Origin: an uncultured Candidatus Poseidoniales archaeon
GTDB taxonomy: Archaea > Thermoplasmatota > Poseidoniia > Poseidoniales > Thalassarchaeaceae
Direction of reading: 5' to 3'
Assembly: GCA_964342465.1 (NCBI GenBank)
Contig: CAYFFQ010000004.1
Coordinates: 95,077-159,076, forward strand
Length of the DNA: 64,000 nt
The translations under genes were made by a program, and so were the position numbers. Every line of letters starts with the position of its first letter. The stretch's first letter is position 1. Under the pieces are notes generated by a model. It was not told the DNA's origin and made no database searches. It worked only from the letters and a program-made list of their open reading frames with translations. Shown in pieces: positions 2,823-14,920 of the stretch.

Positions 2823-3179
2823 ATCTAGTGTGCGTTCAATCGCTATGGTTAAAATCCAATTTCCTCTGGCGTAGGTCGTATGAGCGAAGAGGCACTTCAG
2901 GACGACGCCCCATCACAGAGCCTCTATCTACTCGCTTGGTCAGTTTCACTGATTTTGACCTTCATCATCGGCGTCACTTATTGGTGAGATGTACACATCA
3001 TCTCTTCACTTCTGTGGGGTGTGTCATCCGTTGGGTTTTACCACCACATTTTGAGGAAATGGTCAATTCTAGGATGGGTTAGACCCATCATCAATCGACG
3101 CTCGCCGTCACTAGCATCCCCTCGGTTGAATTGTTCCTTCCACACGCGTTGATAGGTGATGAGTGGTGCGCAGGAGTGG

Positions 3180-5048
3180 ATGTGTGGTATCGGGGTGCTC
3201 CTTGGGAGGGGTGATGCACCGTTTGCTCGTCGGATGGCAGGGGCACTATCACACCGCGGCCCTGATGGAATTGGCGTCTGGAATGATGATGTTTGCACCT
3301 TTTCTCACTCCCGCCTCTCCATCGTCGACCTACTCGGCTCCGACCAACCCATCGGCTCAGAACATGGCTGTTGGCTGGTTCAGAATGGTGAAATCTACAA
3401 TTATCAGGAATTGAGGCGGGAGTTCTCAGCATACGATTGGAGAACCAAGGGTGACGGAGAGACTATTCTTGCCGCCCACAAAACCGTCGCGAGAGGTGGT
3501 GGCGCCTCCACGCCACAACAACCTGTTCGCTCAGTCATCGTCGGGGATGTGAGACGGACTGCGGCTGCTGACGACGATGCCAATGTGGCACAGAGGCATG
3601 TTGAATGGGTGAGGAAACTCGATGGGATTTGGGGTTTCGCTCTTTGGGATTCGGTTGAAGAGGAACTTATCCTCTGCCGCGACCCCTTAGGAGTCAAACC
3701 ACTCCTCAGAACACTCACCGATAGTGGAGAGTTGATGGTTGCTTCGGAAGCGAAGGCATTCAGAGTTCATTCGGAATACACACCTCGTATCGATGAGAAT
3801 GCCCTATTGGCCCGATTGGCATTTGAATATCCGCTCGATGAGACCACCTTGTTCGAGGGTGTGTCTCAAGTGGCGCCGGGCACAATCGAGACTTGGGCTC
3901 TTGATGAAATGGGCAGAGCCACCTTGACGGGAGTGGCGCGATACATTTCCGATAGGGTGGCGCCGGCGCAATCGTGGAATCCTGCTACTGACGCTGCCCC
4001 CCTTCTTGATTCGCTCTGCTCTTCAGTTGAACAGAGGCTGATGGCGGATGTTCCTGTCGGAATCATTCTCTCAGGTGGCCTTGATTCGAGCATGGTCGCT
4101 GGCCTTGCTCATCGTGCTGCCAAAAATGCCGGAAAACCGGTGCCAGAGTGCTGGACGGTGGCGGAGAGCGAGGACAATCCGGATTTCATCGCCGCCGAGG
4201 AGGTATGTTCGGTACTTGACCTCTCTCACCATACATCTACGCTTGAGGAAGGGGCCTTCTGGAACCACTTGCCTGCTCTCAGTTGGTTCGGAGAAGACCT
4301 TGACATCTCTGTCCTCTTCTTCCAACCCCTATTCGCAAAGATGGCAGAGGAGTTGTCCGTCGGGTTGTGTGGGCAAGGTGCTGATGAATTGCATGGCGGT
4401 TATCCACGATACCGCGAACTCTCTCGCCACCGTCAATCGATTGCTGACCGTCTCACCGCCAGCCGCCACCCCTTCGCTCCCCATCTGCTCACCGACATCT
4501 CCACAGTCACGCCCGTCGGGGCCGGCCAACCTTGGCGGAAGAAGGCACATAATCCCCATTCTGACTTCCGTGACCTCGCATCGACTCTCCAATACGAACT
4601 TGACCACGGCCAACTGACCAATTTCCAACTCCGCTTGGTGGACAGGCACAGCATGGCTCATGGCTTGGAGGTGAGGGTGCCGTTCCTCGGCTCTTCACAT
4701 CGCAAGGCATCACACACCATACCTATGGATTGGCGAGTTCGAGGGAGTGAGGAGAAACTTGCTCTTCGCTCTGCGGCTGCATTGACCGACCTCCCTTCTT
4801 CAATAGTGAAGAGGCCGAAACTACCCGCAGGTACGGCAACCACTCCGACAATGTTGGCTGAAATACTTGCAGAACTTCGCCCTCATACTGAGGATTGGCG
4901 AAGGCGATATCCAACCCTTCAACGGGTATTGAAAGGTCAACCGGATATGACTATCGGTCTGCGTCTCTTCGAGTCGTTGCATATCACTGACGGTGGAGTT
5001 GGACGGGAGAAGAAGGAACTTTGGGACCTGCTGAATGATGTCGAGTAA
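3180..5048 (+). CDS. asnB: Asparagine synthetase (glutamine-hydrolysing), AsnB family
   Basis: N-terminal MCGI (catalytic Cys2 requires the start at ATG 3180, not 3156), a class-II GATase domain, the SGGLDSS PP-loop and a C-terminal synthetase domain. Contains a ~45 aa low-complexity insertion before the GIWGFALWD motif. Confidence 0.85.
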   Translation: MCGIGVLLGRGDAPFARRMAGALSHRGPDGIGVWNDDVCTFSHSRLSIVDLLGSDQPIGSEHGCWLVQNGEIYNYQELRREFSAYDWRTKGDGETILAAHKTVARGGGASTPQQPVRSVIVGDVRRTAAADDDANVAQRHVEWVRKLDGIWGFALWDSVEEELILCRDPLGVKPLLRTLTDSGELMVASEAKAFRVHSEYTPRIDENALLARLAFEYPLDETTLFEGVSQVAPGTIETWALDEMGRATLTGVARYISDRVAPAQSWNPATDAAPLLDSLCSSVEQRLMADVPVGIILSGGLDSSMVAGLAHRAAKNAGKPVPECWTVAESEDNPDFIAAEEVCSVLDLSHHTSTLEEGAFWNHLPALSWFGEDLDISVLFFQPLFAKMAEELSVGLCGQGADELHGGYPRYRELSRHRQSIADRLTASRHPFAPHLLTDISTVTPVGAGQPWRKKAHNPHSDFRDLASTLQYELDHGQLTNFQLRLVDRHSMAHGLEVRVPFLGSSHRKASHTIPMDWRVRGSEEKLALRSAAALTDLPSSIVKRPKLPAGTATTPTMLAEILAELRPHTEDWRRRYPTLQRVLKGQPDMTIGLRLFESLHITDGGVGREKKELWDLLNDVE

Positions 5049-5127: not shown

Positions 5128-6360
5128 ATGGTGGAGTACAGTGGACCCGACCTTCTCGCCGATCTGTCTCAGAGAGTGGAGGAGAAGCGGGAGGAGTTGA
5201 TTCATTTCTTCAAGGCTGAGAGAGAGCGATTGCCTATGCCTCTGTATGCCTCTGTGGACATCAGGGATGCTGGGTGGAAGGTGGCAGCGGTTGATGCCAA
5301 CGCCTATCCGGCAGGATTCAACAATGTCGGAGAGAGTCAACGTGGCGTTATTTCAGAGAACCTTGGAAAATGGTTGCAAAGACACCACCCCAACGCCAAG
5401 AGATTGCATATCTGGCCGGAGGCGCATACTCGCAACATCGCTTATGTGGATAATCTCCTCACTCTGAAATCTCTTTTTGAGAACATAGGAGCCGATGTGA
5501 CTGTAGGTCTTCGAGAACTGAACGATGTCGGGAGAATCAGAGGTGAAAGTGGTGAACTGGAACTCTCCCATGTTGAGATTGGCGAATCAATTCTCGTTGA
5601 CGGAGAGAGGCCTGACCTCATAATCTTAAACAATGACCTCTCGGACGGCCCATCGGAAATCCTCTCAGCAAATGCAGTCGCTCCTCCGCCGGAGATGGGC
5701 TGGTATCAGCGACGCAAGTCGAACCATTTTCGCCATGTACAACCATTCTTAGATGGGGTCGCTGAGATTCTCGGAATCGACCCGTGGTTGATAGGTACTC
5801 ACTGGTTCGTAAGTGAGGACAAATGTCTCGAAAAAGTGGCCTGTCGAGTTGAATTGGCAGCTCAGGTAGATTCCTGCCTCGCATTTCTGAAAGGAAAGTA
5901 TGAGCAGTACGGTATATCTGGTGAACCCGTCCTGTTTGTAAAAAACGACTCGGGAACCTATGGTCTGGGCATCATAGAAATTCGCAGTGGGGAGGAGTTG
6001 TTGAATCTCTCCAACCGAAAGGTCAACCGTCTCACCTATGGCAAAGGGGGTTCTCAAGTGGCAGATTTTCTGCTTCAGGAAGGTGTACCCACTACCCTAA
6101 GAGCGGAGGGTTATGTCGTTGAACCTTGCACTTATGGAGCCGGTGGGGAGAGTTGCGCGACATTCTATAGAGTGAATGACAAAAAGGGGGAAATGTCAAA
6201 TCTGAATACACCATCAACGCAATTTTTCGGGCCGCAAAAGATGATGCAGTTGGAAGGTGGTCCTGAGATTCTCAAGAAACAGTCCAGTTGGCACGCCTTG
6301 GTTGCAGAACTCGCAATGCTGGCAATGGCCGCGGAACTAGAAGAATTGCAAGCGAGTTGA
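5128..6360 (+). CDS. Putative glutamate--cysteine ligase (GshA, 'ferrooxidans-type' family) / ATP-grasp-like ligase
   Basis: The N-terminus PLYASVDIRDAGWKVAAVDANAYPAGFNNV and the later FVKNDSGTYGLGI match my recollection of the small bacterial GshA family (Pfam GshA / TIGR02049). Not verified by search. Confidence 0.5.
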   Translation: MVEYSGPDLLADLSQRVEEKREELIHFFKAERERLPMPLYASVDIRDAGWKVAAVDANAYPAGFNNVGESQRGVISENLGKWLQRHHPNAKRLHIWPEAHTRNIAYVDNLLTLKSLFENIGADVTVGLRELNDVGRIRGESGELELSHVEIGESILVDGERPDLIILNNDLSDGPSEILSANAVAPPPEMGWYQRRKSNHFRHVQPFLDGVAEILGIDPWLIGTHWFVSEDKCLEKVACRVELAAQVDSCLAFLKGKYEQYGISGEPVLFVKNDSGTYGLGIIEIRSGEELLNLSNRKVNRLTYGKGGSQVADFLLQEGVPTTLRAEGYVVEPCTYGAGGESCATFYRVNDKKGEMSNLNTPSTQFFGPQKMMQLEGGPEILKKQSSWHALVAELAMLAMAAELEELQAS

Positions 6361-6955: not shown

Positions 6956-7480
6956 TCACCATTCCGATTCATGGGTCAGCAGCCACTGCTTTGTCTCAGC
7001 ACCATCAGCAGCAGAATAGCGCCCCAATCCTCCACATGATTTTAGAACTCTATGACAAGGTATGACCAAGGAAATAGGGTTATTCGCCATGACGGTGCCA
7101 ACGGCGCGGGGGGCCCCTTCATGCCCAGATGCGGAAGCGAGGGCCGCGTACGAAATCGTCTCACCGAGTTGTACCTGCCTGACGAGTGTCATTGAGACAC
7201 TTTTTGCAAATGATGATAATTGATTGAGATCTAACTTCGGAGTCTCTCTCATCTCTTTTGAAAAATAGCCAGTGACCCACGCCTCGGTGTGGTCAAGGTG
7301 CACATTCCCCTCTTCACACTCTGGTCTGTCCGACAACTGACCCCAGTAGAGGCGAGTTAGACCGACATCTGATGCTTCTGCTACCATTTCTCCATGTGGT
7401 GTTCTGATGGTTCGCCATGCGGATTCTACAGTCAAGAACATCAGCCTCTTTCTGAGTTCTCGATTGTCAAGAACCTTCAT
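6956..7480 (-). CDS. ogt: Methylated-DNA--protein-cysteine methyltransferase
   Basis: Active-site motif IPCHRV followed by LGRYSAADGAETKQWLLTHE. Size 174 aa. Confidence 0.85.
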   Translation of the reverse strand: MKVLDNRELRKRLMFLTVESAWRTIRTPHGEMVAEASDVGLTRLYWGQLSDRPECEEGNVHLDHTEAWVTGYFSKEMRETPKLDLNQLSSFAKSVSMTLVRQVQLGETISYAALASASGHEGAPRAVGTVMANNPISLVIPCHRVLKSCGGLGRYSAADGAETKQWLLTHESEW

Positions 7481-7796
7481 CTGCTCCCTGCATCGGTGAA
7501 TCCTCTAGCTCACCCGTGGATGAATCCGGCTGTTCCATGCCTACAATTTCATAATTGGATGGAAAAAGCGCGATTGCAATGCCAGCGATGAGGGCTGCAA
7601 GCCCAAGATAGAATCTCTGTTGTGTGATCATCAATTCAAGCGCCACAACAACCAGTAGTAGCCCACCTACATTGGACACCCAAACTAAGGTCTTGAATGT
7701 TGAAAGAGAAACTCCACTGTTGTGTTTTGAGCGATATGGGCCGAATTCGGCACCGAATCTGACGGGTTCCTTCTCTTCTTCACTCATCATAATCAC
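7467..7796 (-). CDS. Small membrane protein (2 TM), last gene of the respiratory operon
   Basis: 109 aa with two hydrophobic helices (VGGLLLVVVALELMI, LGLAALIAGIAIALF). The start overlaps the ferredoxin stop by 4 nt (7793-7796) and the end overlaps the ogt start. Confidence 0.5.
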   Translation of the reverse strand: MIMMSEEEKEPVRFGAEFGPYRSKHNSGVSLSTFKTLVWVSNVGGLLLVVVALELMITQQRFYLGLAALIAGIAIALFPSNYEIVGMEQPDSSTGELEDSPMQGADEGS

Positions 7797-8125
7797 CGGT
7801 CAATCATGGAAATGGCATTGGTCGGGCAGGCGAGGACACAGAGTCTGCAACCTGTGCAATCATCACGCAATATCTCGGCCTTTTTGTTGACTTCAATCCC
7901 ATCAATCTCGCTCCTGAGCGGTGCGTCATAAAGGCGAATCGCCTTGTCATCACAGACGAGAATGCATTGGTCACAACCGATACAGGCGTCAATGGCAACG
8001 AAAGCGACGACAGTGGCACCCTCTTCTATTTCAGCAGCAATGTTATCCCGTGCATTGGAAAATGCCGTCAGAATGTGTTCAGCGTGGGCTGCACGCCTAC
8101 TCTCCACCTCATCACCTCTGCTCAT
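7793..8125 (-). CDS. 2x[4Fe-4S] ferredoxin-domain protein
   Basis: Two cluster motifs, CIGCDQCILVCD and CTGCRLCVLACP. Lies 40 nt downstream of the cytochrome b-HdrD-like fusion gene on the same strand. Confidence 0.8.
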   Translation of the reverse strand: MSRGDEVESRRAAHAEHILTAFSNARDNIAAEIEEGATVVAFVAIDACIGCDQCILVCDDKAIRLYDAPLRSEIDGIEVNKKAEILRDDCTGCRLCVLACPTNAISMIDR

Positions 8126-8165
8126 CCTGATACCTTAGGCGAGGCCATCGGCTATCATTCCTTGC

Positions 8166-11066
8166 TCAAGCGGCTACTTCTTCTGCTTTGATGCTGGCGA
8201 CCGCATCAGCGAGATTATCTCCCGCATTTTTCTCTTCCAATTGTCTAGCGAGGAAGGTGACTACATCTGTGATCTCGAAGTCATAGGCGGGGTCGCCTTC
8301 GAACTTGAGGCACTCGAAGTGAGCAACACACTTGGGGCAGGAAGTGACCATCATCTCTGCTCCGCTGTCGATTACTTCCTTGAATCTCTGGACACGGATG
8401 GTTCGGCTGTCCTCATTACATGACATCATGGATGAGACTCCGCAGCAGAGAGCATCTTCCCGGGAATGTACCATCTCGACGAGGTCAACACCACCTACGG
8501 CTGAAATCAATTCTCTCGGTTCATCATAGATGTTCATCTGTCGCCCCAGTCTGCATGGGTCGTGGAATGTGACCTTCTTCGGGCAGGAGGTGTTGAGTTC
8601 AACATCGAAGCCGGCTTCTTTGAGGTATTCGGTGGTGTGCATGACCTTGATGCCCTCAAGGCCGTAGTCCATGGCGAATGTTCGGAAACATTCGGCACAA
8701 CTGCTGACCAGTGTATCAATTCCACTCGCTTCAAGTTTCGCCTTGTTGTGGGCCTTCAGTTTGTCAAAGACATCATCCAATCCCTGCCATTTCTGGTCAT
8801 GCCCACAACATTTCAGGAAATCTCGTCCGAGGTAGGAGACATCGACACCCATTTCATCGAACAGGGTGAAGGCGGCGGTAGTCGTCTCTCCTAGATTCAT
8901 CTCGCCCCTGTTGAGATGACTGAAGACCATGTCTTGGTCGAGATAGTCTACACATCCGGGGTAGTAGCCTACATTGGATGATATCGGGTATTCATCCACT
9001 GTCATGAACTCTTCGTCGGCATCACTTTCCGCCTCAGCGTTGATAATCGCCTGCAGAACTGTGTGCGGAATGTTGGCGGCTGGTGGGCCACCGACAATCA
9101 GATTGCGCCTGATATCCACATACGAATCGTAGTCGACCAACTGTGGGCAGGCATTGGTACACGCTGAACAGGTCAGACATGAGAAGAGTGGCACACCATC
9201 GTCTTCGTTGTTCCAAGTGTTGTAGATGATGTTCAGTTTGTCTCCACCGGTGAAGAGACGAACCGGACAGGCGTCATCACAGAGGTCACAACCGTAACAC
9301 TTGTTCATCTCGTATTCGTAGCCACGAGCCATGCTCCGGAGGAGGACATAGACCATCGCACCCAAGCCCAATGGGGGAATGAAAAGTGAGTAGGTAAGTT
9401 TAGCGTCCAGCGCCTTCGGATTCTTGTGGAATGTAGGGTTGGTCATCACCAATCCGGCGAGGTCATCGTCTGACACACCTGCAAGGGTCATCTCAGTGAC
9501 ATTACCGCGGTCGAGTGCCATTCCGGTATCTGGATTGAGGATAAGTGGCTGGAATACTGAGACTGCGGTGGTAGCATCTACCACAACACTGCTGTTTCCT
9601 GAGTCGAACTCGGAATCGAATGTCATCATCACCGTGTAATCTCCTGGCGAAGCGTCGAATGTCTTAGTCGTGCAGGTCATGCCTTCCTCGAGGTCACCAG
9701 CCAATGAGGCGACTACGACTCCTGCTGCATCCTTCACCGTCATCGATATGGAGTGGTCGCCAGCCTTGCGAGTTGATGTTCGGAATGTGCATCCAAGGTC
9801 CATTGACAATTCTTCCACTCCGAGGTCTTCTACACTCATCGTATAGGTGTTGGAAATGGAATTGTCACCGGAGAAGGAGAGGACATCACTGTACCCATTG
9901 ACACCTCCGGTGACGACCCCCTCGCTGCTGTGTGTCTCGATATGGTTGTTAGCATCATTGAAGTCGATTAAAGTCGCTTGAACGGGTTGGTATATTCCCC
10001 AATTCATCCAGTGGACAGCGGGAAGAAGGCAGTATTCACCTCTGTCGGCGGCATCAGCGCCACTGAACTTGGAATCCTGCCAAAGAACACTTCCCGAACT
10101 CGCTCCATAGGAGAGACAGTTGCCACTCATGCTATCCCAATCATGCCCCTCACCATACACGACAAGCGTATCCTGAGGTTGATTTCTGAGCGTCGCAAGT
10201 TCATCGACTTCGTCCATCGCACCCAATCCACCCATGTCCCAAAACCCGCCTTCGTAGATAGGCCAAGAGACGACAGATAGCAGCACCGCGATGATTAGTG
10301 CCCCCAATCCGACCATCCTGCCGATTCGGGGGGTGGCTCGCGAACCAGCCGCCTTGATGAGATATGACTTGGCTAGGAAAAAGAGAACTATCCAGATGAG
10401 GATTCCAGTCAGAATCCATGGAATGGCGTTGAAGAGGTCGGCAATCCACGGCTCCCTGACACCGCAACTTAGTCCTGCATGGGAATTTAGTAGACAGAAA
10501 TCTGAACGATTCTTCCCATACAGGAGCAAAAATATGTTTATCGAAAAGACGGAGATGAACCAGATGTGAGCGAGGTAAATCACTCCAGCCGCTGCGAACC
10601 ACGGGTCTTCCACACCTCTCTTGGCACGCCCACCGAGGAAAGGGGGAAGCGCGAGTATTCCGACTGGGAAACCGGTTAGGAATGCACCCCACCATCCAGC
10701 ATTCCAAGAGATGACAGGACTTCCGAAGAAGTCAGCGATTATCTGTGGGAGAGGGATGTCAAACTGCGGAAGGTATTCCCCCCATCGGAGATATCCATAG
10801 GAGAAGAGCACATACCAGTCTGGAAAGACGAACCCCGCCTGAGCGAATGGGTCTGCGGCGCTGTGGAGAGGTGGTGGAATCAACCACGAATAAAAGCATA
10901 ACACAGCCGTCATAGCGGCAAGAACGATTGTATCGCGCAGAACTTCATGCGGCCACAATGGATGGCCGACGAATGTTCTCTGCCGCCCCACCTCTGCATC
11001 TAGGAGTTTGTCCTTTTCCTGCATATAGACATCGGCAATGCGGCCAAAATTATCGAACATACCCAT
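8166..11066 (-). CDS. Fusion protein: cytochrome b C-terminal (subunit IV-like) domain + ~290 aa extracytoplasmic domain + TM + HdrD/GlpC-like Fe-S/CCG domain
   Basis: aa 1-270 are polytopic with the Qo-site-like motif FPDWYVLFSYGYL (PEWY equivalent). aa ~270-555 are hydrophilic with NxS/T sequons. A TM helix follows (LFIPPLGLGAMVYVLL). After it come CYGCDLCDDACP and CLTCSACTNACP (two 4Fe-4S motifs, nt ~9141-9300) and two CCG-type Cys-rich repeats (FLKCCGHD ~8799-8820, ALCCGVSS ~8441-8456, plus HDPC and SCPKC). Confidence 0.8.
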   Translation of the reverse strand: MGMFDNFGRIADVYMQEKDKLLDAEVGRQRTFVGHPLWPHEVLRDTIVLAAMTAVLCFYSWLIPPPLHSAADPFAQAGFVFPDWYVLFSYGYLRWGEYLPQFDIPLPQIIADFFGSPVISWNAGWWGAFLTGFPVGILALPPFLGGRAKRGVEDPWFAAAGVIYLAHIWFISVFSINIFLLLYGKNRSDFCLLNSHAGLSCGVREPWIADLFNAIPWILTGILIWIVLFFLAKSYLIKAAGSRATPRIGRMVGLGALIIAVLLSVVSWPIYEGGFWDMGGLGAMDEVDELATLRNQPQDTLVVYGEGHDWDSMSGNCLSYGASSGSVLWQDSKFSGADAADRGEYCLLPAVHWMNWGIYQPVQATLIDFNDANNHIETHSSEGVVTGGVNGYSDVLSFSGDNSISNTYTMSVEDLGVEELSMDLGCTFRTSTRKAGDHSISMTVKDAAGVVVASLAGDLEEGMTCTTKTFDASPGDYTVMMTFDSEFDSGNSSVVVDATTAVSVFQPLILNPDTGMALDRGNVTEMTLAGVSDDDLAGLVMTNPTFHKNPKALDAKLTYSLFIPPLGLGAMVYVLLRSMARGYEYEMNKCYGCDLCDDACPVRLFTGGDKLNIIYNTWNNEDDGVPLFSCLTCSACTNACPQLVDYDSYVDIRRNLIVGGPPAANIPHTVLQAIINAEAESDADEEFMTVDEYPISSNVGYYPGCVDYLDQDMVFSHLNRGEMNLGETTTAAFTLFDEMGVDVSYLGRDFLKCCGHDQKWQGLDDVFDKLKAHNKAKLEASGIDTLVSSCAECFRTFAMDYGLEGIKVMHTTEYLKEAGFDVELNTSCPKKVTFHDPCRLGRQMNIYDEPRELISAVGGVDLVEMVHSREDALCCGVSSMMSCNEDSRTIRVQRFKEVIDSGAEMMVTSCPKCVAHFECLKFEGDPAYDFEITDVVTFLARQLEEKNAGDNLADAVASIKAEEVAA

Positions 11067-11081
11067 TCAGATGACCCCCTC

Positions 11082-11951
11082 TCAATGCGGCTCCGCAATA
11101 CCTTGCACCCAAACGATGAACAGGTGAATGATGATGAGTGTGGTGACGATGACGGGCAGAATGAATACATGTAGGAAGTACATCCTCGTCACTGTGGCGC
11201 CTGAGAGTGAGGTCCCACCGAATAGCATGATTGCTGCCCAATTACCTATCAGTGGGGTGGATTTCGCCATGGCGATACCGATGGTCGCTGCCCCGAAAGC
11301 GAGAGCATCCCACGGGAGCAGATATCCGGAATATCCGAAGACGATTGTCAGCAGCATTAGTCCAACTCCGATTAGCCAGTTCAACTCACGTGGGTTTCGG
11401 TAGGCGCCGGTGAAGTAGACGCGGCACATGTGGAGGAAGACCGAAGCCACCATGAAGTGTGTCCCCCAGTGGTGGATGCTTCTGATGATGTAGCCGAACG
11501 GAAGTGAGGTCATGATGAACTCCATACTTGCGTAGGCGGGGGTTGTATCGCCTTCACCCCCCGGCACATAGTAGATGCCGAGAATGGTGCCGGTGATGAC
11601 TAGGATGATGAAGGCGAGAAAAGATATTCCACCTAGACAGTAGAGTGGATACCAATACCAAATTATTCGAAGTTTGTACTTCTCAGAGTGGGTCAGAGGC
11701 ATCTGTCGATGCACCGAGTAGTATGCGTCGCGGCTCATCGCCCAATAGTCCTGAATACGGAAACGTGTGTCAAGCCAAGAAAAGGTCCACAGAAACAACT
11801 TCTCAGCCATCCCCATTTTACCGACCGATTCGACGGCGCGGAGTATCTCCTTGCGAGGCACATCCTCACCTTCTTTTCTCAGAGTGAGAGCCACCAAGAC
11901 CGTGACGATGATGATAAAGAGCCACAGAAACCAGAATTGTAGTAACATCAT
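11082..11951 (-). CDS. Cytochrome b, N-terminal (b6-like, di-haem) subunit
   Basis: SIHHWGTHFMVASVFLHMCRVYFTGAYRNPRELNWLIGVGLMLLTIVFGYSGYLLPWD is the classic cytochrome b/b6 helix B-D region with paired haem-ligand His residues. Confidence 0.9.
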   Translation of the reverse strand: MMLLQFWFLWLFIIIVTVLVALTLRKEGEDVPRKEILRAVESVGKMGMAEKLFLWTFSWLDTRFRIQDYWAMSRDAYYSVHRQMPLTHSEKYKLRIIWYWYPLYCLGGISFLAFIILVITGTILGIYYVPGGEGDTTPAYASMEFIMTSLPFGYIIRSIHHWGTHFMVASVFLHMCRVYFTGAYRNPRELNWLIGVGLMLLTIVFGYSGYLLPWDALAFGAATIGIAMAKSTPLIGNWAAIMLFGGTSLSGATVTRMYFLHVFILPVIVTTLIIIHLFIVWVQGIAEPH

Positions 11952-11959
11952 CTCATCTC

Positions 11960-12835
11960 CTAATTGCAGAATGTGTACCAGTCGAGAATCTCGACCACAC
12001 CCTCCGCTTCAAAATCGATCGCTTCCATTACATCGTTATTGACAACGAATGGAATCAGAGGCATGCCCACCGGTGCAGGGCCGCCCGTTCGTTTGACACC
12101 GAAATACTCGAAGGATGAACCGGTGTCCTTGTTGATGTTGGTGTTCTTTTCAATGACAGTGGGGTCGAACCGTGATGAATGACAAATGCAGAATAGTTTG
12201 TTTCCGCCAGAATCGAGGCCGCCGGGAATCCAGTTGTCAGCGGTGAAATCGTTGGCAACGAGTTGCCAGCCGGGGATGCAACAGAGGTGCGGGCAGCGAG
12301 ACATGATGATGATGATGTTGTCGTGAATCTTGAGGACAGACAATTTCTCATCCTCTTCTATTTCACCGCCATAACCGATGACAGCTCCGGTCTGGTCGAC
12401 ACCATCCATGAATTGGAATCTAACTCCACCCGATGAAGTCGGTGAATTCTTGTTTTCATCGTGTGGGACATAGACGACAGTGACCGGCATCCCACCCCAA
12501 ACGCCCTGTGCTCCAGCCATGCCAGTGGCGCTCTTCGCCGCTTCGCCCTCGAAGTCAGACTTCTTCATCGGCTCTTGGTGCTTCGAGCCATACCAAACGA
12601 CATCTTCCTGTCCCTTCGGCACCCAGAAGAGGATGGCGTTGTTGCCACCATCTCCATCCTGCGTTCCCATCAGGAGTGAGGCGAATCCGATTGAGCCGAG
12701 ACTTGCCATCGTTATCACGCCGGCTGCGGAATTGAAAGAATAGCGCATGAACTTCCGCCTGTCGAGGCTGTATCCGGGTGTTGGTGTAGGCTCGCCTGCT
12801 GCTGGAGAGGGCCGCAGTCTGAATTCTCTAGCCAT
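11960..12835 (-). CDS. Rieske [2Fe-2S] protein with Tat-like signal
   Basis: Rieske box I CPHLCC and box II CICHSSRF. The N-terminus has RRKFMRYS followed by a hydrophobic stretch (twin-arginine-like signal/anchor). Confidence 0.9.
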   Translation of the reverse strand: MAREFRLRPSPAAGEPTPTPGYSLDRRKFMRYSFNSAAGVITMASLGSIGFASLLMGTQDGDGGNNAILFWVPKGQEDVVWYGSKHQEPMKKSDFEGEAAKSATGMAGAQGVWGGMPVTVVYVPHDENKNSPTSSGGVRFQFMDGVDQTGAVIGYGGEIEEDEKLSVLKIHDNIIIIMSRCPHLCCIPGWQLVANDFTADNWIPGGLDSGGNKLFCICHSSRFDPTVIEKNTNINKDTGSSFEYFGVKRTGGPAPVGMPLIPFVVNNDVMEAIDFEAEGVVEILDWYTFCN

Positions 12836-12838
12836 CCT

Positions 12839-13291
12839 TCACACCTCATATTTCTGCCAACTCTCGGGGTCCTTGGGAGCGACGAACTTGCCCCGCCTGT
12901 GTTTGACAATGACGAGGTCTGGAGCCACCCACTTCAGGTAGACAATGCCCATTATGATTAGTGTCACCATGGTCATGCCGAGATGGAATGAGAGTTGCTG
13001 CTGGTCCCATCCGTGGTAGAGTCCGTATGAGAGTGAGCCAGCCCAATAGAGGGTCCAGGCCACCCCCCAGAGAAAGACAAGAATAACCAGTGCAGAGGTT
13101 CCTGAAGGTGCCAGTGAAGCGCGCACTACAGTGCCCGGTTCGACCCTGTTGAATACTCCGTGGTCGATGGCCGCTTCGTAGGTTTCCTCGTCGAGGTCGA
13201 AATCACTCAGGGCAGTTCGCGCGTCGGCGACACTCACCTTGCCGGAGGCGACATCCCTGAGCATCTGGGTGATGACATCCTTCTCCATCAT
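12839..13291 (-). CDS. Membrane protein (2 TM) of unknown function in the respiratory operon
   Basis: 150 aa. Soluble acidic N-terminal ~60 aa, then two hydrophobic helices (ALVILVFLWGVAWTLYWAG, LGMTMVTLIIMGIVYL). Ends 3 nt before the Rieske gene start. Confidence 0.5.
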   Translation of the reverse strand: MMEKDVITQMLRDVASGKVSVADARTALSDFDLDEETYEAAIDHGVFNRVEPGTVVRASLAPSGTSALVILVFLWGVAWTLYWAGSLSYGLYHGWDQQQLSFHLGMTMVTLIIMGIVYLKWVAPDLVIVKHRRGKFVAPKDPESWQKYEV

Positions 13292-13362
13292 CGACCACCC
13301 CTCTTGGCTAGGTAATCGTCAAGGGCGTCCTTCCAGACTTGCAAGTTCAGAGGATTGCTCAT
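13288..13362 (-). CDS. Speculative 24-aa micro-ORF bridging two operon genes
   Basis: My translation is ATG(13362) MSNPLNLQVWKDALDDYLAKRGGR TGA(13288). Its ATG overlaps the upstream stop as ATGA (13359-13362), and its TGA overlaps the downstream ATG (13288-13291). Too short for the ORF track, and there is no homology evidence. Confidence 0.2.
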   Translation of the reverse strand: MSNPLNLQVWKDALDDYLAKRGGR

Positions 13363-14186
13363 AGTTGGTCACCTCTCCTCAGATGTCTGATTCGCAGTTG
13401 CAGCAGATTGGTGCGGCCGGTGTAGTGGCGGCTGAAACCGTAACGTAGGAAGAAACCACAGAAGATGATGACAGAGATGACAGCGCCGAATCCGAGTAAG
13501 CCGAGCCAGTGGGCGCGGAAGGGTGCGCCCATGCTGTGCAAGTCGATGTGGCCGCTGTCGACGGCCGGCGGTTGGATATTGCCATCGCCGGCCATTATAG
13601 TCCGAGTGTCGCCGTTGTCGCTACCTTCTTTGAGAGTTACAGAGAGGCGGTTGTAGGCGTCAGGAGCCATTGGCGCGCCATTGCCATCAACGGCGTTTCC
13701 AGACAACCACACGGTCACATCACCACTCCCAGTGGCGGGTGCTGTCCATGTCACCACCCACAGTCTGTCAGCCACCTGAGAGCCATCAGACGAGTGTGTC
13801 ATCGTCTGTTCTGAGCCATCATTGTCAACAAGAGTCTCAAAGCCAGCAGCGGCCGCGAGCATGCCACTGGAAACCCGCATCGAGAATCCACCCGTGGGTG
13901 AGTGGCCGCCAGCGATATCAGGCCCACCGATGAGTTGGATGGTGAAGGTGTAGGTTGTTCCTTCCATCCATGCGTAGGGTACGCCGTCGAGAATGAGGGT
14001 CACACTGTCAGAGGGGGCGATTTCGTTGTTGGTGTGGCAGGTACAACCGTTCTTGGCGACATCTGTTCCACCCTCTGCGACATCTCCGGTTATTCCGTCC
14101 GATTCTGCAATCGAGGCGCCAGCAAGCAGGAGTGCGGATAGGAGCAGAACCACCGCCAGTTTGAGGTCGTTGATTTTACCACCCAT
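13359..14186 (-). CDS. Secreted, C-terminally membrane-anchored protein, Reeler/DOMON-like pattern; first gene of the respiratory operon
   Basis: Signal peptide (LKLAVVLLLSALLLAGASIA). It has NGCTCH, TYTFTIQLIGG, GGFSMRV, MTHSS and WVVTWTAPATGSGDVTVWLSGNAVDGNG, an order of motifs resembling Reeler-type domains. A C-terminal TM (LGLLGFGAVISVIIFCGFFL) is followed by a basic tail. Confidence 0.6.
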   Translation of the reverse strand: MGGKINDLKLAVVLLLSALLLAGASIAESDGITGDVAEGGTDVAKNGCTCHTNNEIAPSDSVTLILDGVPYAWMEGTTYTFTIQLIGGPDIAGGHSPTGGFSMRVSSGMLAAAAGFETLVDNDGSEQTMTHSSDGSQVADRLWVVTWTAPATGSGDVTVWLSGNAVDGNGAPMAPDAYNRLSVTLKEGSDNGDTRTIMAGDGNIQPPAVDSGHIDLHSMGAPFRAHWLGLLGFGAVISVIIFCGFFLRYGFSRHYTGRTNLLQLRIRHLRRGDQL

Positions 14187-14391
14187 GCTACCCTCAACCT
14201 AAGTTGAATCGGCGGAATTGTATAGGTCTAATAATCGTTTGCTGACCACTAGGTGCAAGAGGGATTGCAGTAGTCCGTTCACAGTCACTCAATGATGCCG
14301 TCTAGTAGTACTGGCTGAACCACTTCTCAGAAGAGAGTGGTTGGAACGCCCAACATACAATCTCACACTTTGGGTGGATAAGGGTGATTGA

Positions 14392-14500
14392 AGGTCGAAG
14401 TTGCGCTCCACACCCCAAGATGGGCAGACCTACCAACAAATCGGCTACCTATGTGGGAGGGTGTCGTAGTTGCGCTCCACACCCCCATCTGGGCAGACCT
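14392..14500. repeat. Two-copy direct repeat, 32-40 bp core, 69 bp period
   Basis: GTTGCGCTCCACACCCCAAGATGGGCAGACCT (14400-14431) versus GTTGCGCTCCACACCCCCATCTGGGCAGACCT (14469-14500). The copies differ only in the central AAGAT/CATCT. Intergenic, upstream of the TPR gene. Confidence 0.8.
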
Positions 14501-14617
14501 TTCAGTTCACGGACATCAAATGGACCACTCACCCCGTGGTGCAGGTTTCTACAATCGGCCGACCATATTTCAGAAGAGATGAAAGGGAGAAGTTCTCTCC
14601 ATCAATCAGTGGTGAGA

Positions 14618-14920
14618 ATGGCGGAGAAGGGTTGGGCCAACATCTACAATCTATCCGATAGTCAGATATCTGACCTCGATGAAGCTGAGAGAAGGATGGA
14701 GATGCATGACTTGACCGGTTCGGAGGAATTGTTGTTGACGATGTTGGAGCAGGATGCGGAGTGCATCCCAGTTCTGAGCAATCTTGGACACCTGTATGGG
14801 AAATACTTCACCGATTTCGAAAAGGCGATTGAGTACTATAGGAGAGTGCTTGAATTGGAGCCGGACAATGCTTGGGCGCGTGATGAGCGCCGCCGATACG
14901 AACGCTACGCCTCCTACTGA
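14618..14920 (+). CDS. Small TPR-repeat protein
   Basis: The C-terminal LSNLGHLYGKYFTDFEKAIEYYRRVLELEPDNAWA is a textbook TPR unit. Start set at ATG 14618 (MAEKGW; ATG 14579 also possible). The track's longer N-terminus (from 14384) is translated from the intergenic repeat. Confidence 0.6.
   Translation: MAEKGWANIYNLSDSQISDLDEAERRMEMHDLTGSEELLLTMLEQDAECIPVLSNLGHLYGKYFTDFEKAIEYYRRVLELEPDNAWARDERRRYERYASY

What the first reader, a model, noticed from the sequence alone, without database searches (positions are those of the whole stretch)
7467..14186. Eight-gene Rieske/cytochrome b operon without any CXXCH cytochrome c, with ferredoxin and several small membrane proteins
All genes are on the minus strand with 0-40 nt gaps or 4-nt overlaps. 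The order is secreted Reeler-like protein, micro-ORF, 2-TM protein, Rieske, cyt b-N, cyt b-C/HdrD-like fusion, 2x[4Fe-4S] ferredoxin, 2-TM protein. I scanned each translation and found no CXXCH haem-c motif, so the usual c1/f electron exit of complex III is missing. Candidate exits are the secreted first-gene product on the outside and the HdrD-like domain plus ferredoxin on the inside. That is an atypical wiring for a bc-type complex.
Basis: partly seen in the sequence, partly recalled or inferred. Interest (0 to 1): 0.65.

Follow-up and report, generated by a model that had tools for sequence, protein, structure and literature searches.

The report
Marine archaeal complex III with Hdr-like module
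This is the respiratory "complex III" operon of the abundant ocean archaea called Marine Group II. It has no cytochrome c subunit, and one membrane subunit is fused to a cytoplasmic iron-sulfur module that probably links the complex to ferredoxin.

Summary
The gene cluster is real, but it holds seven genes, not eight. The micro-ORF is not conserved. The window comes from a Marine Group II archaeon (Poseidoniales, Thalassarchaeaceae).

The order g1-g7 is collinear in all 80 related species genomes wherever the contig reaches, and also in family MGIIa. No product carries CXXCH in any species, and no cytochrome c, cupredoxin or oxidase gene lies next to the operon.

The core is a b6-type Rieske/cytochrome b complex:
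- a Tat-exported Rieske protein;
- a cytochrome b6 with four haem histidines and the YCLGG cysteine that binds haem ci in b6f;
- a subunit IV with a PDWY motif.

Subunit IV is fused, through extra helices and an outside beta-domain, to a cytoplasmic HdrD-like module (two [4Fe-4S] motifs and two complete CCG motifs). Shorter versions of this fusion occur in other archaea. There they are followed by MvhD/FlpD-, HdrA- or HdrBC-like genes, and the outside module varies (cupredoxin, pentahaem cytochrome).

Most likely the complex oxidises quinol and passes electrons to blue-copper carriers encoded elsewhere. The ferredoxin plus HdrD-like module probably feeds cytoplasmic electrons into the haem bH/ci-Qi side. 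The direction of that flow and the cofactor of the reeler-fold GCTCH protein remain open. Parts of this have been noted in the literature; I call it a new variant of a known kind.

The parts
13359..14186 (-). g1: type-I membrane protein of 275 aa. It has a signal peptide (aa 8-26), an acidic reeler-fold ectodomain with an invariant GCTCH (aa 47-51), a C-terminal TM helix (228-246) and a basic tail. It is the candidate outside-face (p-side) redox subunit; its cofactor is unknown.
   Evidence: NCBIfam NF041895 choice-of-anchor V, 73 bits against a cutoff of 42. In the AF2 model the core (aa 60-200) is confident; the best Foldseek matches are F-spondin reeler domains (E 2e-5, TM 0.6), while cytochrome f matches only weakly. 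C48, C50, H51, Y79, H131, H217, M219 and H226 are invariant or nearly so in 74 MGII sequences. Topology. It is the first gene in 71 of 71 loci that reach that far.
13288..13362 (-). It is not a gene.
   Evidence: tblastn match in 1 of 80 loci. g1 and g2 abut or overlap in 59 of 71 loci. Independent gene callers do not call it.
12839..13291 (-). g2: DUF7318-like two-helix membrane subunit (150 aa), with both ends predicted to be cytoplasmic.
   Evidence: Pfam DUF7318, E 9.5e-5, below the family cutoff. Homologs that do pass as DUF7318 are the gene before Rieske in distant archaeal loci; tblastn E 5e-11. Topology.
11960..12835 (-). g3: Rieske [2Fe-2S] protein (291 aa) with a twin-arginine signal and an N-terminal anchor helix. 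Motifs: CPHLCC, CICHSS and the GPAP loop.
   Evidence: Motifs; they are conserved in 75 orthologs. Alignment A6 has RR, C181, H183, C186, C216, C218, H219, G252 and P253 invariant. A profile of A6 matches the Thermus Rieske protein 1nyk (E 6.5e-9) and b6f PetC. TIGR01416 matches weakly.
11082..11951 (-). g4: cytochrome b6-type subunit (289 aa). It has an extra N-terminal helix, haem ligands H160/H174/H261/H276, and Cys105 in LYCLGG, which equals Cys35 of b6 (the covalent haem ci site).
   Evidence: PF00033 E 2.6e-42. phmmer against cytochrome b6 structures gives E 6e-43, and the alignment places C105 on Cys35 and all four His on the b6 ligands. LYCLGG is present in 77 of 78 orthologs.
10212..11066 (-). 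g5, aa 1-285: subunit IV-like membrane part (helices about 39-62, 123-143, 155-185, 207-243 and 246-275) with the Qo motif PDWY (aa 82-85).
   Evidence: phmmer against b6f subunit IV, E 8e-4, over aa 27-94. TIGR01156 matches weakly. PDWY is present in 80 of 80 orthologs. It aligns with non-MGII fusions that hit PF00032 (12 of 12, best E 1e-12). Helices from AF2.
9417..10184 (-). g5, aa ~295-550: beta-rich ectodomain inserted on the outside face. It is variable in sequence, with four conserved Cys (317, 346, 426, 465).
   Evidence: AF2 strands 300-505 with pLDDT 75-90. Weak matches to filamin Ig and PKD folds. Conservation. It is absent from the shorter non-MGII fusions and enlarged in the 1334-aa variants.
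9327..9404 (-). g5, aa ~555-580: the sixth TM helix, which returns the chain to the cytoplasm.
   Evidence: AF2 helix 563-590. This segment is conserved (LTYSLFIP...G.GA in the consensus). The first Fe-S cysteine (C590) follows about 12 residues after the hydrophobic stretch.
8307..9314 (-). g5, aa 585-920: cytoplasmic HdrD-like module. It has two CX2CX2CX3CP motifs (C590-C600, C630-C640) and two complete CCG motifs (C705...C753C754...C790xxC793; C838...C874C875...C910xxC913).
   Evidence: PF02754 CCG, two copies, E 3.6e-23, and Fer4 dicluster families. Best NCBIfam match is TfrB, E 1.6e-28. Cysteine positions. Foldseek: EtfD 9ojn E 6e-15, LutA TM 0.77, HdrB TM 0.63-0.66. The residue alignment with EtfD shows that g5 keeps the Hdr-type ligand set.
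7793..8125 (-). g6: soluble 2x[4Fe-4S] ferredoxin (110 aa). It corresponds to the 'RnfB-like' protein of the MGII literature.
   Evidence: Fer4 families E 1e-12. TIGR01944 rnfB scores 40.9 bits, below its cutoff of 68.7. Present in 77 of 80 loci. It resembles the Fer4 part of the Fer4+FlpD proteins that follow the fusion gene in Thermoplasmata (E 9e-7).
7467..7796 (-). g7: small two-helix membrane protein with an acidic C-terminal tail. Gene callers start it at an internal ATG (106-107 aa).
   Evidence: Present in 75 of 80 loci. An HMM of the MGII orthologs matches the last small gene of the distant operons L081, L084, L085 and L086 (E 1e-7 to 8e-4 with Z set to 1000). Topology. Gene calls.

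Best explanation
The region is the seven-gene operon for the Marine Group II (Poseidoniales) form of a b6-type Rieske/cytochrome b complex, that is, a quinol-oxidising complex III.

Shown by sequence:
- a Tat-exported Rieske protein;
- a cytochrome b6 with four haem ligands plus the cysteine that binds haem ci;
- a subunit IV carrying a PDWY Qo motif.

Together these form an ordinary Q-cycle core. PDWY points to menaquinol as substrate. Subunit IV is covalently extended by two more helices, an outside beta-domain and a sixth helix. That helix leads into a cytoplasmic HdrD-like module with two cubane and two CCG-type iron-sulfur sites. The first of these sites starts about 12 residues from the membrane.

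Inferred:
- On the outside, the Rieske cluster passes electrons to blue-copper carriers (halocyanin or plastocyanin) encoded elsewhere. This happens either directly or through g1, a membrane-anchored reeler-fold protein whose invariant Cys-x-Cys-His, His and Met residues could hold a haem or a copper centre.
- On the inside, the small ferredoxin g6 docks on the HdrD-like module. It delivers low-potential cytoplasmic electrons through the Fe-S chain to haem bH/ci, where quinone is reduced at the Qi site. The likely source of those electrons is 2-oxoacid:ferredoxin oxidoreductases.
- The complex would therefore be both a quinol oxidase and a ferredoxin:quinone entry point. This resembles the proposed ferredoxin-to-haem ci route of cyclic electron flow in b6f.
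- g2 (DUF7318) and g7 are conserved small membrane subunits.
For: Identity and conservation:
- Homologs of g5 are full-length in hundreds of Poseidoniales protein clusters.
- The order g1-g7 is collinear in 80 species genomes and in MGIIa.
- Motif conservation: PDWY 80 of 80, LYCLGG 77 of 78, GCTCH 69 of 71, both Rieske boxes in all 75 orthologs.

Core:
- g4 aligns to b6 at E 6e-43, with Cys35 and the four His in register.
- The Rieske profile hits solved Rieske proteins.
- Subunit IV homology is supported.

Topology:
- AF2 helices and the positive-inside rule place the beta-domain outside and the Fe-S module inside.

Entrance rather than exit:
- The closest solved relative is mycobacterial EtfD (phmmer E 1e-22, Foldseek E 6e-15). 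EtfD forms an Fe-S-to-haem b-to-menaquinone wire that brings electrons into the quinone pool (PMC13083937).
- Related archaeal operons place MvhD/FlpD-, HdrA-, FrhB- or HdrBC-like genes directly after the fusion gene. This fits a flavin- or Fe-S-based donor that uses the quinone pool as its high-potential acceptor.
- The same idea was put forward for Angelarchaeales (PMC9038741).
- The 'orphan RnfB' reported in many MGII families (PMC6336850) is probably g6 (my inference, not checked against that paper's gene list).

Outside carriers:
- Halocyanin and plastocyanin genes are highly transcribed in Thalassarchaeaceae (PMC9723583).
- In relatives the slot occupied by g1 holds a pentahaem cytochrome as first gene, or a cupredoxin fused to cytochrome b.
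Against: - Nothing here measures electron flow, so the direction through the HdrD-like module is an inference.
- g5 keeps both CC pairs of the CCG motifs and lacks the Thr and His substitutions that make EtfD's clusters non-catalytic (one search compared). By ligand set it therefore looks like a catalytic heterodisulfide reductase, which would favour an output (reductase) role.
- The CxGG motif predicts haem ci but does not prove it, and no maturation system was examined.
- g1 has no homolog in the non-MGII operons. Its family is a general bacterial surface domain, its resemblance to cytochrome f is weak (TM 0.25-0.31), and the motif region is modelled with low confidence.
- In 23 loci an opposite-strand small gene, and in about 11 loci an opposite-strand glycosyltransferase, separate g6 and/or g7 from g1-g5. 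Co-transcription of all seven genes is therefore not universal.
- The AF2 model of g5 is only moderate (pLDDT 66, pTM 0.38).
Confidence: 0.5

Rival explanations
1. Output wiring. The HdrD-like module is a second electron exit. Quinol oxidation at Qo sends one electron up to Rieske. The other goes down through bL, bH and ci into the Fe-S chain, where the two CCG clusters reduce a cytoplasmic disulfide or, through g6, ferredoxin. Part of the low-potential branch of the Q cycle would thus serve as a quinol-driven reductase, an Hdr-type variant of what has been proposed for the anammox Rieske/cyt b complexes.
For: Both CCG motifs are complete, both CC pairs are kept, and the EtfD-type Thr/His replacements that shield and inactivate the clusters are absent (compare). 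The best NCBIfam matches are thiol/disulfide enzymes or Hdr-like proteins (TfrB 1.6e-28, also DsrK and HdrC). HdrB is a good fold match (TM 0.63-0.66). In HdrDE, the namesake enzyme, electrons flow from a membrane b cytochrome to HdrD and on to a disulfide (established knowledge). A glutamate-cysteine ligase gene lies just downstream in both MGII families, so a low-molecular-weight thiol is probably made.
Against: MGII are described as obligate aerobic heterotrophs (PMC6336850) with no obvious need for quinol-driven disulfide or ferredoxin reduction. No substrate-handling gene is part of the operon. Reducing a 2x[4Fe-4S] ferredoxin from haem bH/ci would be steeply uphill. The gshA linkage may reflect only the general synteny of this order, because the whole neighbourhood is conserved. 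Most CCG proteins that work with quinones (EtfD, GlpC, GlcF, LdhH) are electron inputs.
Confidence: 0.22
2. EtfD-like entry for beta-oxidation. The HdrD-like module accepts electrons not from ferredoxin but from electron-transfer flavoprotein (acyl-CoA dehydrogenases) and passes them to quinone through the b haems. This would make the complex the ETF:quinone oxidoreductase of these lipid- and peptide-degrading archaea. g6 would be an internal or accessory wire.
For: EtfD is the closest solved relative by both sequence and fold, and its function is ETF to menaquinone (PMC13083937). MGII rely on fatty-acid and protein degradation (PMC6336850), and 3-hydroxyacyl-CoA dehydrogenase is among their most transcribed genes (PMC9723583).
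Against: Identity to EtfD is only about 23%, and the EtfD-specific cluster ligands are not shared. No etfAB genes are in the operon or its flanks. A dedicated ferredoxin gene is conserved next to the module (77 of 80 loci). Whether MGII genomes have ETF or a canonical ETF-QO was not examined.
Confidence: 0.12
3. g1 is not a redox subunit. The Rieske protein reduces halocyanin or plastocyanin directly, as assumed for other archaeal complexes. g1 would then be a structural, assembly or cell-surface protein that merely shares the operon. Its Cys-x-Cys-His would form a disulfide or a structural metal site.
For: Blue-copper carriers exist and are highly expressed. The choice-of-anchor V / reeler domain is a general surface domain with no known redox role. 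g1 is absent from the non-MGII operons. No cofactor motif of any known class is present.
Against: g1 is the first gene in every MGII locus that reaches that far, in both families. Its TM helix and tail are the best-conserved part, as expected for a subunit packed into a membrane complex. Six potential ligand residues in the ectodomain are invariant or nearly so in 74 sequences. The corresponding slot in relatives holds a cytochrome or a cupredoxin.
Confidence: 0.45
4. An ordinary complex with incidental neighbours. Only Rieske and cytochrome b form the complex, and the other genes are adjacent by chance.
For: Some loci carry opposite-strand insertions between g5/g6 and between g6/g7. All 80 loci belong to one order, so conserved synteny could partly reflect shared descent.
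Against: The HdrD-like module is in the same polypeptide as subunit IV, so it cannot be incidental. The same fusion recurs at 34-42% identity in Thermoplasmata, Geothermarchaeales and other archaea, again with DUF7318, Rieske and b6 upstream and with an Fe-S protein and a g7-like small gene downstream.
Confidence: 0.03

Closest known systems
Cytochrome b6f and the Firmicute/heliobacterial b6-type menaquinol:cytochrome c reductases (split cytochrome b with haem ci)
   Same: Cytochrome b is split into a b6-like protein and subunit IV. g4 aligns to b6 at E 6e-43 with all four haem His and the Y-C-L-G-G cysteine of haem ci. A Qo motif sits on subunit IV (PDWY, as in Firmicutes; PMC4122944). The Rieske protein has the two cluster boxes. 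Ferredoxin-to-haem ci electron input has been proposed for b6f (established knowledge).
   Different: There is no cytochrome f/c1 and no fused cytochrome c domain. Subunit IV has two extra helices, an ectodomain and a cytoplasmic HdrD-like module. b6 has an extra N-terminal helix. The organism is an archaeon, whereas in 2014 the CxGG motif was known only from Firmicutes, cyanobacteria/chloroplasts and the 'APWY' clade (PMC4122944). The presence of haem ci is untested.
Membrane b-cytochrome plus CCG iron-sulfur enzymes: HdrDE, mycobacterial EtfD (PDB 9ojn), DsrMK, QmoC, GlpC
   Same: The cytoplasmic module has two ferredoxin-type [4Fe-4S] motifs and two CCG domains, and it is attached to a haem b membrane part that talks to the quinone pool. 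In EtfD, as here, the membrane part and the Fe-S part are one polypeptide.
   Different: The membrane partner here is subunit IV of a complete Rieske/cyt b Q-cycle machine, not a NarI/HdrE-type cytochrome b. The EtfD-specific ligands (Thr in place of the second Cys of CCG1; His583) are not shared. There is no CoM/CoB metabolism in these organisms.
Complex III locus of Ca. Angelarchaeales (Thermoplasmatota) with hdrD-like and rnfB-like genes (Diamond et al. 2022, PMC9038741)
   Same: Both belong to the phylum Thermoplasmatota. Both have a cytochrome b/Rieske locus without cytochrome c, an adjacent hdrD-like and an rnfB-like gene, and the same proposed role as an entry point for reduced ferredoxin.
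   Different: There a plastocyanin-like gene lies upstream of Rieske in 23 of 30 loci; MGII has the reeler-fold g1 instead and no adjacent cupredoxin. That paper does not describe a fusion with subunit IV, an ectodomain or a haem ci motif. I could not check whether its hdrD-like gene is the same fusion.
Sulfolobus SoxLN-CbsAB-OdsN Rieske/cyt b complex (from my own knowledge, not checked here)
   Same: It is an archaeal Rieske/cyt b operon without cytochrome c1. A secreted, C-terminally anchored, beta-rich protein (CbsA, cytochrome b558/566) is encoded alongside and is thought to stand in for c1. This is the same architecture as g1.
   Different: No sequence similarity between g1 and CbsA was tested. 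CbsA is a demonstrated haem b protein, whereas g1's cofactor is unknown. There is no Hdr-like module in Sulfolobus.
Anammox (Kuenenia) Rieske/cyt b complexes with extra cytoplasmic oxidoreductase subunits (from my own knowledge)
   Same: A Rieske/cyt b core is encoded with additional cytoplasmic redox subunits, which led to proposals that the low-potential branch is coupled to a cytoplasmic redox couple.
   Different: Those extra subunits are NAD(P)-linked flavoproteins and multihaem proteins, not CCG/Hdr-type. They are separate polypeptides, and c-type cytochromes are present.

Membership tests
Rieske/cytochrome b complexes (bc1/b6f superfamily) | Rieske [2Fe-2S] subunit with CxH...CxxH cluster boxes, exported to the p-side | tested here: met
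   CPHLCC and CICHSS, an RR signal and the GPAP loop are invariant in A6. The profile hits solved Rieske proteins at E 6.5e-9.
Rieske/cytochrome b complexes (bc1/b6f superfamily) | Cytochrome b with four His ligands for haems bL and bH | tested here: met
   H160, H174, H261 and H276 align with the b6 ligands. PF00033 E 2.6e-42.
Rieske/cytochrome b complexes (bc1/b6f superfamily) | Qo-site motif (PEWY or a variant) on the C-terminal part / subunit IV | tested here: met
   PDWY at g5 aa 82-85, in 80 of 80 orthologs. Subunit IV homology.
Canonical cytochrome bc1 / b6f | A c-type cytochrome subunit (c1 or f) with CXXCH | tested here: not met
   No CXXCH in any of the seven products or their orthologs in 80 species. 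None is encoded in the flanks.
b6-type complexes with haem ci | Split cytochrome b plus a CxGG motif whose Cys aligns with Cys35 of b6 | tested here: met
   LYCLGG; C105 aligns with Cys35. Present in 77 of 78 orthologs and in 5 of 6 distant relatives.
b6-type complexes with haem ci | Covalently bound haem ci actually present | not testable with these tools
   This needs haem staining or spectroscopy of the b6 polypeptide.
HdrD / CCG-domain iron-sulfur proteins | Two CX2CX2CX3C(P) motifs and two CCG motifs (C...CCG...CXXC) | tested here: met
   C590/593/596/600, C630/633/636/640, C705/753/754/790/793 and C838/874/875/910/913. PF02754 in two copies.
HdrDE heterodisulfide reductase | An HdrE/NarI-type membrane cytochrome b partner, and CoM-S-S-CoB as substrate | tested here: not met
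   The partner is subunit IV of a Rieske/cyt b complex. All NCBIfam Hdr and Tfr scores are far below their cutoffs. The substrate is not testable.
EtfD (ETF:menaquinone oxidoreductase) | Linear [3Fe-4S] site (Thr replaces the second Cys of CCG1) and a His completing the noncubane cluster | tested here: not met
   g5 has CCG where EtfD has CTG, and Glu792 where EtfD has His583 (definitions from PMC13083937).
Choice-of-anchor V / reeler-fold domain | Match to NF041895 above its cutoff, and a reeler-like beta-sandwich fold | tested here: met
   73 bits against a cutoff of 42. The top Foldseek hits are F-spondin reeler domains, E 2e-5, TM 0.55-0.61.
Cytochrome f / c1 (for g1) | A CXXCH haem-binding motif, and the fold of the large domain | tested here: not met
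   The motif is CxCH, not CXXCH. Foldseek against cytochrome f gives E about 1e-3 but TM only 0.25-0.31. Only the overall layout is alike: an N-proximal Cys/His motif, a beta domain and a C-terminal anchor.
RnfB (for g6) | Score above the TIGR01944 cutoff, and the rest of the Rnf complex | tested here: not met
   40.9 bits against a cutoff of 68.7. The literature reports no RnfACDEG in MGII (PMC6336850). g6 is a plain two-cluster ferredoxin.

The most novel reading that the evidence does not exclude
The MGII operon, with its relatives in other archaea, may represent a distinct class of Rieske/cytochrome b machine. In this class the Q cycle is hard-wired, through a subunit IV::HdrD fusion next to a haem ci, to the cytoplasmic ferredoxin/flavin (Hdr-type) electron economy. 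Quinone-based and flavin/Fe-S-based bifurcation chemistry would then meet in one complex. In MGII the place of cytochrome c1/f would be taken by a reeler-fold protein holding a new kind of redox centre on an invariant Cys-x-Cys-His plus His/Met set. That centre could be an unusually attached haem or a CuA-like copper site.
Probability: 0.2. Interest if true: 0.85.

Novelty: new variant of a known kind. Interest (0 to 1): 0.6.

Why it matters
Marine Group II archaea are among the most abundant archaea in the surface ocean and have no cultured member. Their energy budget is therefore inferred from genes alone.

- **Energy models.** If their only complex III also takes in ferredoxin (or ETF) electrons at the Qi/haem ci side, current models mis-state how reducing power from peptide and lipid breakdown reaches oxygen and how many protons are moved per electron. 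Those models describe a 'non-canonical complex III' plus an unexplained orphan 'RnfB'.
- **Evolution.** An archaeal b6-type cytochrome with the haem ci cysteine bears on the debate about the origin of b6f-like complexes.
- **A wider class.** The recurring subunit IV::HdrD fusion, followed by MvhD-, HdrA- or HdrBC-like partners in several archaeal lineages, points to an undescribed class of complexes that join the Q cycle to Hdr-type chemistry.
- **A testable candidate.** The reeler-fold GCTCH protein is a concrete candidate for a new membrane-anchored redox subunit.

Tried and rejected
- **Micro-ORF as a gene.** Rejected: 1 of 80 loci has a match, most genomes leave no room for it, and gene callers do not call it.
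- **g1 as a cytochrome f homolog.** The layout and the motif position are alike. However, the Foldseek TM is only 0.25-0.31 and there is no CXXCH. I kept this only as an analogy.
- **g1 related to the Cys-x5-Cys-His-Gly ectodomain fused to cytochrome b in Thermoplasmata.** hhalign probability 2%, and there is no NCBIfam hit for that domain. Rejected as homology.
- **Sequence searches of g1 and g3 against solved structures.** Nothing for g1 and nothing for g3 as a single sequence. Only the g3 profile worked.
- **Pfam.** No hit for g1, g3 or g7, even at E up to 1 for g1.
- **A redox partner elsewhere in the 64-kb window.** Only housekeeping genes were found: RNA polymerase-size ORFs, glutamate synthase, MeaB, Nre, PdxS and others. 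The only CXXCH in the window lies in a 1034-aa ORF unrelated to respiration.
- **Conserved flanking genes as partners.** The upstream neighbours are divergent TPR and FtsZ-like genes. The downstream neighbours are ogt, gshA and asnB-like genes. None is a cupredoxin, cytochrome or oxidase.
- **Literature searches.** Searches for a subunit IV-Hdr fusion, for 'choice-of-anchor V', for CXCH haem binding and for Rieske with HdrA/MvhD returned nothing relevant.
- **Whether L081 (complete Thermoplasmata genome CP070808.1) is the Angelarchaeales genome of PMC9038741.** This could not be established.

Full report
**1. What is in the sequence**

Seven ORFs lie head to tail on the minus strand between 7467 and 14186. 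The gaps between them are 67, 3, 8, 15, 40 and -4 nt. Upstream of g1 there is a 197-nt spacer followed by a divergently oriented small TPR gene. Downstream, an ogt gene overlaps g7 by 14 nt.

It has a tblastn match in only 1 of 80 related loci. In 59 of 71 loci g1 and g2 abut or overlap, so there is no space for it. Two independent gene callers do not call it. I treat it as spurious.

None of the seven products contains CXXCH, CXXXCH, CXXXXCH or CXXCK.

**2. Whose genome it is, and how conserved the cluster is**

The 966-aa product of g5 has full-length homologs at 62-100% identity in hundreds of protein clusters. Where these carry names, the names are Thalassarchaeaceae, Poseidoniales or Thermoplasmatota archaea. 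The window therefore comes from a Marine Group II (MGIIb) archaeon; the identical protein sits on marine-metagenome contigs of up to 388 kb.

A scan of one genome per species returned 336 relatives. The best 80 are all Poseidoniales. In every one of these 80 loci the order g1-g2-g3-g4-g5-g6-g7 is collinear wherever the contig reaches: 71, 72, 75, 78, 80, 77 and 75 loci respectively. A Poseidoniaceae (MGIIa) contig has the same seven genes and the same flanks.

Across the 80 species:
- no ortholog of any of the seven genes has CXXCH;
- clustering of all flanking ORFs found no cupredoxin, cytochrome or oxidase gene next to the operon.

**3. The core is a b6-type Rieske/cytochrome b complex**

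*g3 (Rieske).* It has a twin-arginine signal, an anchor helix, the boxes CPHLCC and CICHSS, and the GPAP loop. All are invariant in an alignment that includes distant relatives. A profile of that alignment finds solved Rieske proteins (Thermus 1nyk E 6.5e-9; b6f PetC).

*g4 (cytochrome b6).* It aligns to cytochrome b6 structures at E 6e-43, far better than to long cytochromes b (1e-30 or weaker). All four haem histidines are in register: H160, H174, H261 and H276. In the same alignment Cys105, in L-Y-C-L-G-G, falls on Cys35 of b6. That is the residue which binds haem ci (cn) through a single thioether. The motif is present in 77 of 78 orthologs. Kao and Hunte (PMC4122944) found the CxGG motif only in Firmicutes, cyanobacteria/chloroplasts and their 'APWY' clade, with YCLGG being the heliobacterial/cyanobacterial form. 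An archaeal occurrence is therefore noteworthy.

*g5, N-terminal part (subunit IV).* It matches b6f subunit IV (E 8e-4 over aa 27-94) and carries PDWY in 80 of 80 orthologs. It aligns with shorter archaeal homologs that all hit Pfam Cytochrom_B_C (12 of 12, best E 1e-12). According to the same paper, PDWY goes with menaquinol and a lower-potential Rieske protein.

**4. The unusual part: subunit IV is fused to an HdrD-like module**

The AF2 model of g5 is of moderate quality (pLDDT 66). Together with hydropathy it gives this layout:
- five helices (39-62, 123-143, 155-185, 207-243, 246-275);
- a confidently modelled beta-rich domain (about 300-505);
- a sixth helix (563-590);
- a soluble C-terminal part.

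With the N-terminus inside, as in subunit IV, the beta-domain is outside and the C-terminal part is cytoplasmic. Four conserved cysteines in the beta-domain fit an extracellular location.

The cytoplasmic part has two CX2CX2CX3CP motifs, the first beginning about 12 residues after the membrane helix. It also has two complete CCG motifs. Its best solved relative is Mycobacterium smegmatis EtfD (9ojn): phmmer E 1e-22 and Foldseek E 6e-15. LutA (TM 0.77) and HdrB (TM 0.63-0.66) follow.

EtfD is a single polypeptide in which CCG clusters, two cubane clusters and a haem b form a wire from ETF to menaquinone (PMC13083937). In the residue alignment, g5 keeps the second Cys of the first CCG motif, where EtfD has Thr. 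g5 also has Glu where EtfD has the cluster-completing His583. By ligand set it thus resembles catalytic Hdr proteins more than EtfD.

**5. The fusion is a family, not an MGII oddity**

A search of 1.84 billion cluster representatives found shorter proteins (about 540-800 aa, 34-42% identity). They have the same subunit IV::HdrD architecture but lack the ectodomain. A profile built from them retrieved about 40 clusters carrying PF00032 + Fer4 + CCG. The named ones are a Thermoplasmata archaeon and a Geothermarchaeales archaeon.

I inspected six gene contexts. They share a core:
- a small membrane gene, DUF7318 in five of the six, homologous to g2 (E 5e-11);
- Rieske;
- a b6 that is 50-54% identical to g4, with CxGG in 5 of 6;
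- the fusion gene;
- an Fe-S protein;
- in four of the six, a last small hairpin protein that an HMM of g7 recognises (E 1e-7 to 8e-4).

What varies is the cytoplasmic partner and the outside module.

| Side | Variants seen | Loci |
|---|---|---|
| Cytoplasmic partner | polyferredoxin fused to FlpD/MvhD | L081, L084, L085 |
| | FrhB + HdrA + MvhD | L082 |
| | HdrC + HdrB + HdrA + MvhD | L083 |
| | flavoprotein + Fer4 + FlpD | L086 |
| Outside module | pentahaem cytochrome c with a C-terminal anchor, as first gene | L083 |
| | plastocyanin-like cupredoxin fused to the N-terminus of b6 | L086 |
| | large ectodomain on b6 that starts with an invariant Cys-x5-Cys-His-Gly | L081, L084, L085 |

MGII has the simplest inside partner, the 110-aa two-cluster ferredoxin g6. 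It resembles the Fer4 part of the Fer4+FlpD proteins (E 9e-7). On the outside MGII has g1.

**6. g1**

g1 has a signal peptide, an acidic ectodomain, a C-terminal helix and a basic tail. It passes the NCBIfam choice-of-anchor V model. Its AF2 core matches F-spondin reeler domains best, so 'Reeler-like' is correct.

The most conserved parts are the membrane helix with its tail and a small set of ectodomain residues. C48, C50, H51, Y79, H131, H217 and M219 are invariant or nearly so in 74 sequences from both MGII families. The two segments that hold most of them (24-58 and 210-217) are exactly the low-confidence parts of the model.

This residue set would suit a haem (His/Met or His/His axial ligands, Cys thioethers) or a CuA-like two-Cys/two-His/Met centre. 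It would equally suit a disulfide with no cofactor. CxCH is not a known haem c motif. The layout recalls cytochrome f and, from my own knowledge, Sulfolobus CbsA. The fold match to cytochrome f is weak, however (TM 0.25-0.31). g1 has no homolog in the non-MGII operons. Its redox role is plausible from its position but unproven.

**7. How it most likely works**

*Shown:* all parts of a Q-cycle core are present and conserved, and the Fe-S module is cytoplasmic and in the same chain as subunit IV.

*Inferred, outside:* electrons leave through Rieske to blue-copper carriers. Halocyanin and plastocyanin genes are among the most transcribed Thalassarchaeaceae genes (PMC9723583). The absence of c1/f is therefore the usual archaeal solution. 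g1 may or may not be an intermediate.

*Inferred, inside:* I favour electron entry, running ferredoxin g6 → CCG and cubane clusters → haem bH/ci → quinone at Qi. The reasons are:
- the closest characterised relatives that work with quinones are inputs (EtfD; also GlpC, GlcF and LdhH);
- HdrA/MvhD/FrhB partners in the relatives fit flavin-based donors that use quinone as their high-potential acceptor;
- ferredoxin to quinone is downhill, whereas the reverse from haem bH is steeply uphill;
- a haem ci at Qi is the cofactor through which ferredoxin is thought to feed b6f;
- the same suggestion was made in passing for Angelarchaeales (PMC9038741).

This reading also gives a home to the orphan 'RnfB' that Tully (PMC6336850) reported in many MGII families, since g6 gives a sub-threshold rnfB hit. 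I did not check g6 against that paper's gene list.

The main rival is output, with the low-potential branch reducing a disulfide or ferredoxin. The Hdr-type ligand set supports it. A third option is ETF rather than ferredoxin as donor. None of these can be settled from sequence.

**8. Novelty**

*Already in print:*
- MGII have cytochrome b and Rieske but no canonical bc1, called an 'MGII specific complex III';
- hdrD-like and rnfB-like genes sit beside complex III in one Thermoplasmatota order, with a ferredoxin-entry hypothesis.

*Not found in the searchable literature:*
- the covalent subunit IV::HdrD fusion as a recurring archaeal family with variable Hdr-type partners and variable outside modules;
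- the haem ci motif in archaeal b6;
- the MGII-specific ectodomain in g5;
- the reeler-fold GCTCH subunit.

I rate this as a new variant of a known kind, with moderate to high interest. The organism is globally abundant, and the wiring, if confirmed, joins two modes of energy conversion that are usually treated separately.

**9. Limits**

- All 80 synteny loci come from one order, so gene order alone is weak evidence for function. The cross-order conservation of the core (section 5) carries more weight.
- In 23 loci an opposite-strand 85-aa gene lies between g5 and g6, and in about 11 loci an opposite-strand glycosyltransferase lies between g6 and g7. A single seven-gene transcript is therefore not universal.
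- Both AF2 models are only moderate.
- No whole-genome check for haem-maturation, ETF or oxidoreductase genes was possible with the budgeted scans.

Noticed in passing
L019:10811-11068 (also in 35 other loci; absent from the window, where the g5-g6 gap at 8126-8165 is 40 nt): An ~85-aa, very hydrophobic ORF occupies the g5-g6 gap in 36 of 80 Poseidoniales loci. It is on the operon strand in 13 loci and on the opposite strand in 23, at 35-47% identity between lineages. It is a real small gene that has been inverted, or a mobile insertion. In those lineages it breaks the operon.
   Followed up: partly
L022:11537-12772: A 411-aa glycosyltransferase gene on the opposite strand separates g6 from g7 in about 11 loci (L021, L022, L028, L033, L034, L039-L041, L053, L070, L078).
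   Followed up: no
window 5128-6360 (+) and 3156-5048 (+): A GshA-type glutamate-cysteine ligase (PF08886, E 4e-96) and an asparagine-synthase-like amidotransferase lie convergent just downstream of the operon, in both MGIIa and MGIIb. This implies a gamma-glutamylcysteine-type thiol in these archaea. It may be relevant if the HdrD-like module acts on a disulfide, or it may simply reflect conserved synteny.
   Followed up: partly
L081:5343-7973, L084:4366-6984, L085:4304-6931: In Thermoplasmata relatives, cytochrome b6 carries a ~620-aa N-terminal ectodomain. After a signal-like helix it begins with an invariant Leu-Cys-x5-Cys-His-Gly, followed by beta-rich sequence and Big_5 repeats. It has the same kind of N-proximal Cys...Cys-His motif as g1, but homology is not detectable (hhalign probability 2%).
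   Followed up: partly
L086:5406-6968: A plastocyanin/amicyanin-like cupredoxin domain is fused to the N-terminus of cytochrome b6, in an operon that also has the subunit IV::HdrD fusion. The operon lies next to the V-type ATPase genes.
   Followed up: partly
L083:4729-13487: One relative combines a pentahaem cytochrome c (five CXXCH, C-terminal anchor) upstream with a full HdrC-HdrB-HdrA-MvhD set directly after the subunit IV::HdrD gene, and a further multihaem gene.
   Followed up: partly
L088:7001-11005 (P0453; also P0482): Some MGII lineages have a 1334-1344-aa version of g5 in an otherwise identical operon. I infer that the extra length is a larger outside domain, but I did not align it.
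   Followed up: no
window 6956-7480 (-): A methylated-DNA-protein-cysteine methyltransferase (ogt) gene overlaps the end of g7 by 14 nt on the same strand. It follows g7 in 38 of 80 loci. It is probably co-transcribed but functionally unrelated.
   Followed up: no
window 14384-14920 (+): The 178-aa ORF upstream of g1 is probably over-extended at its 5' end. Its orthologs are TPR proteins of about 100-112 aa, which leaves a longer divergent promoter region between it and g1.
   Followed up: no
window 42448-45168 (+), 22151-23692 (-), 56544-57890 (+): Three large ORFs (906, 513 and 448 aa) have no Pfam match at E <= 1e-5. I did not examine them further.
   Followed up: no
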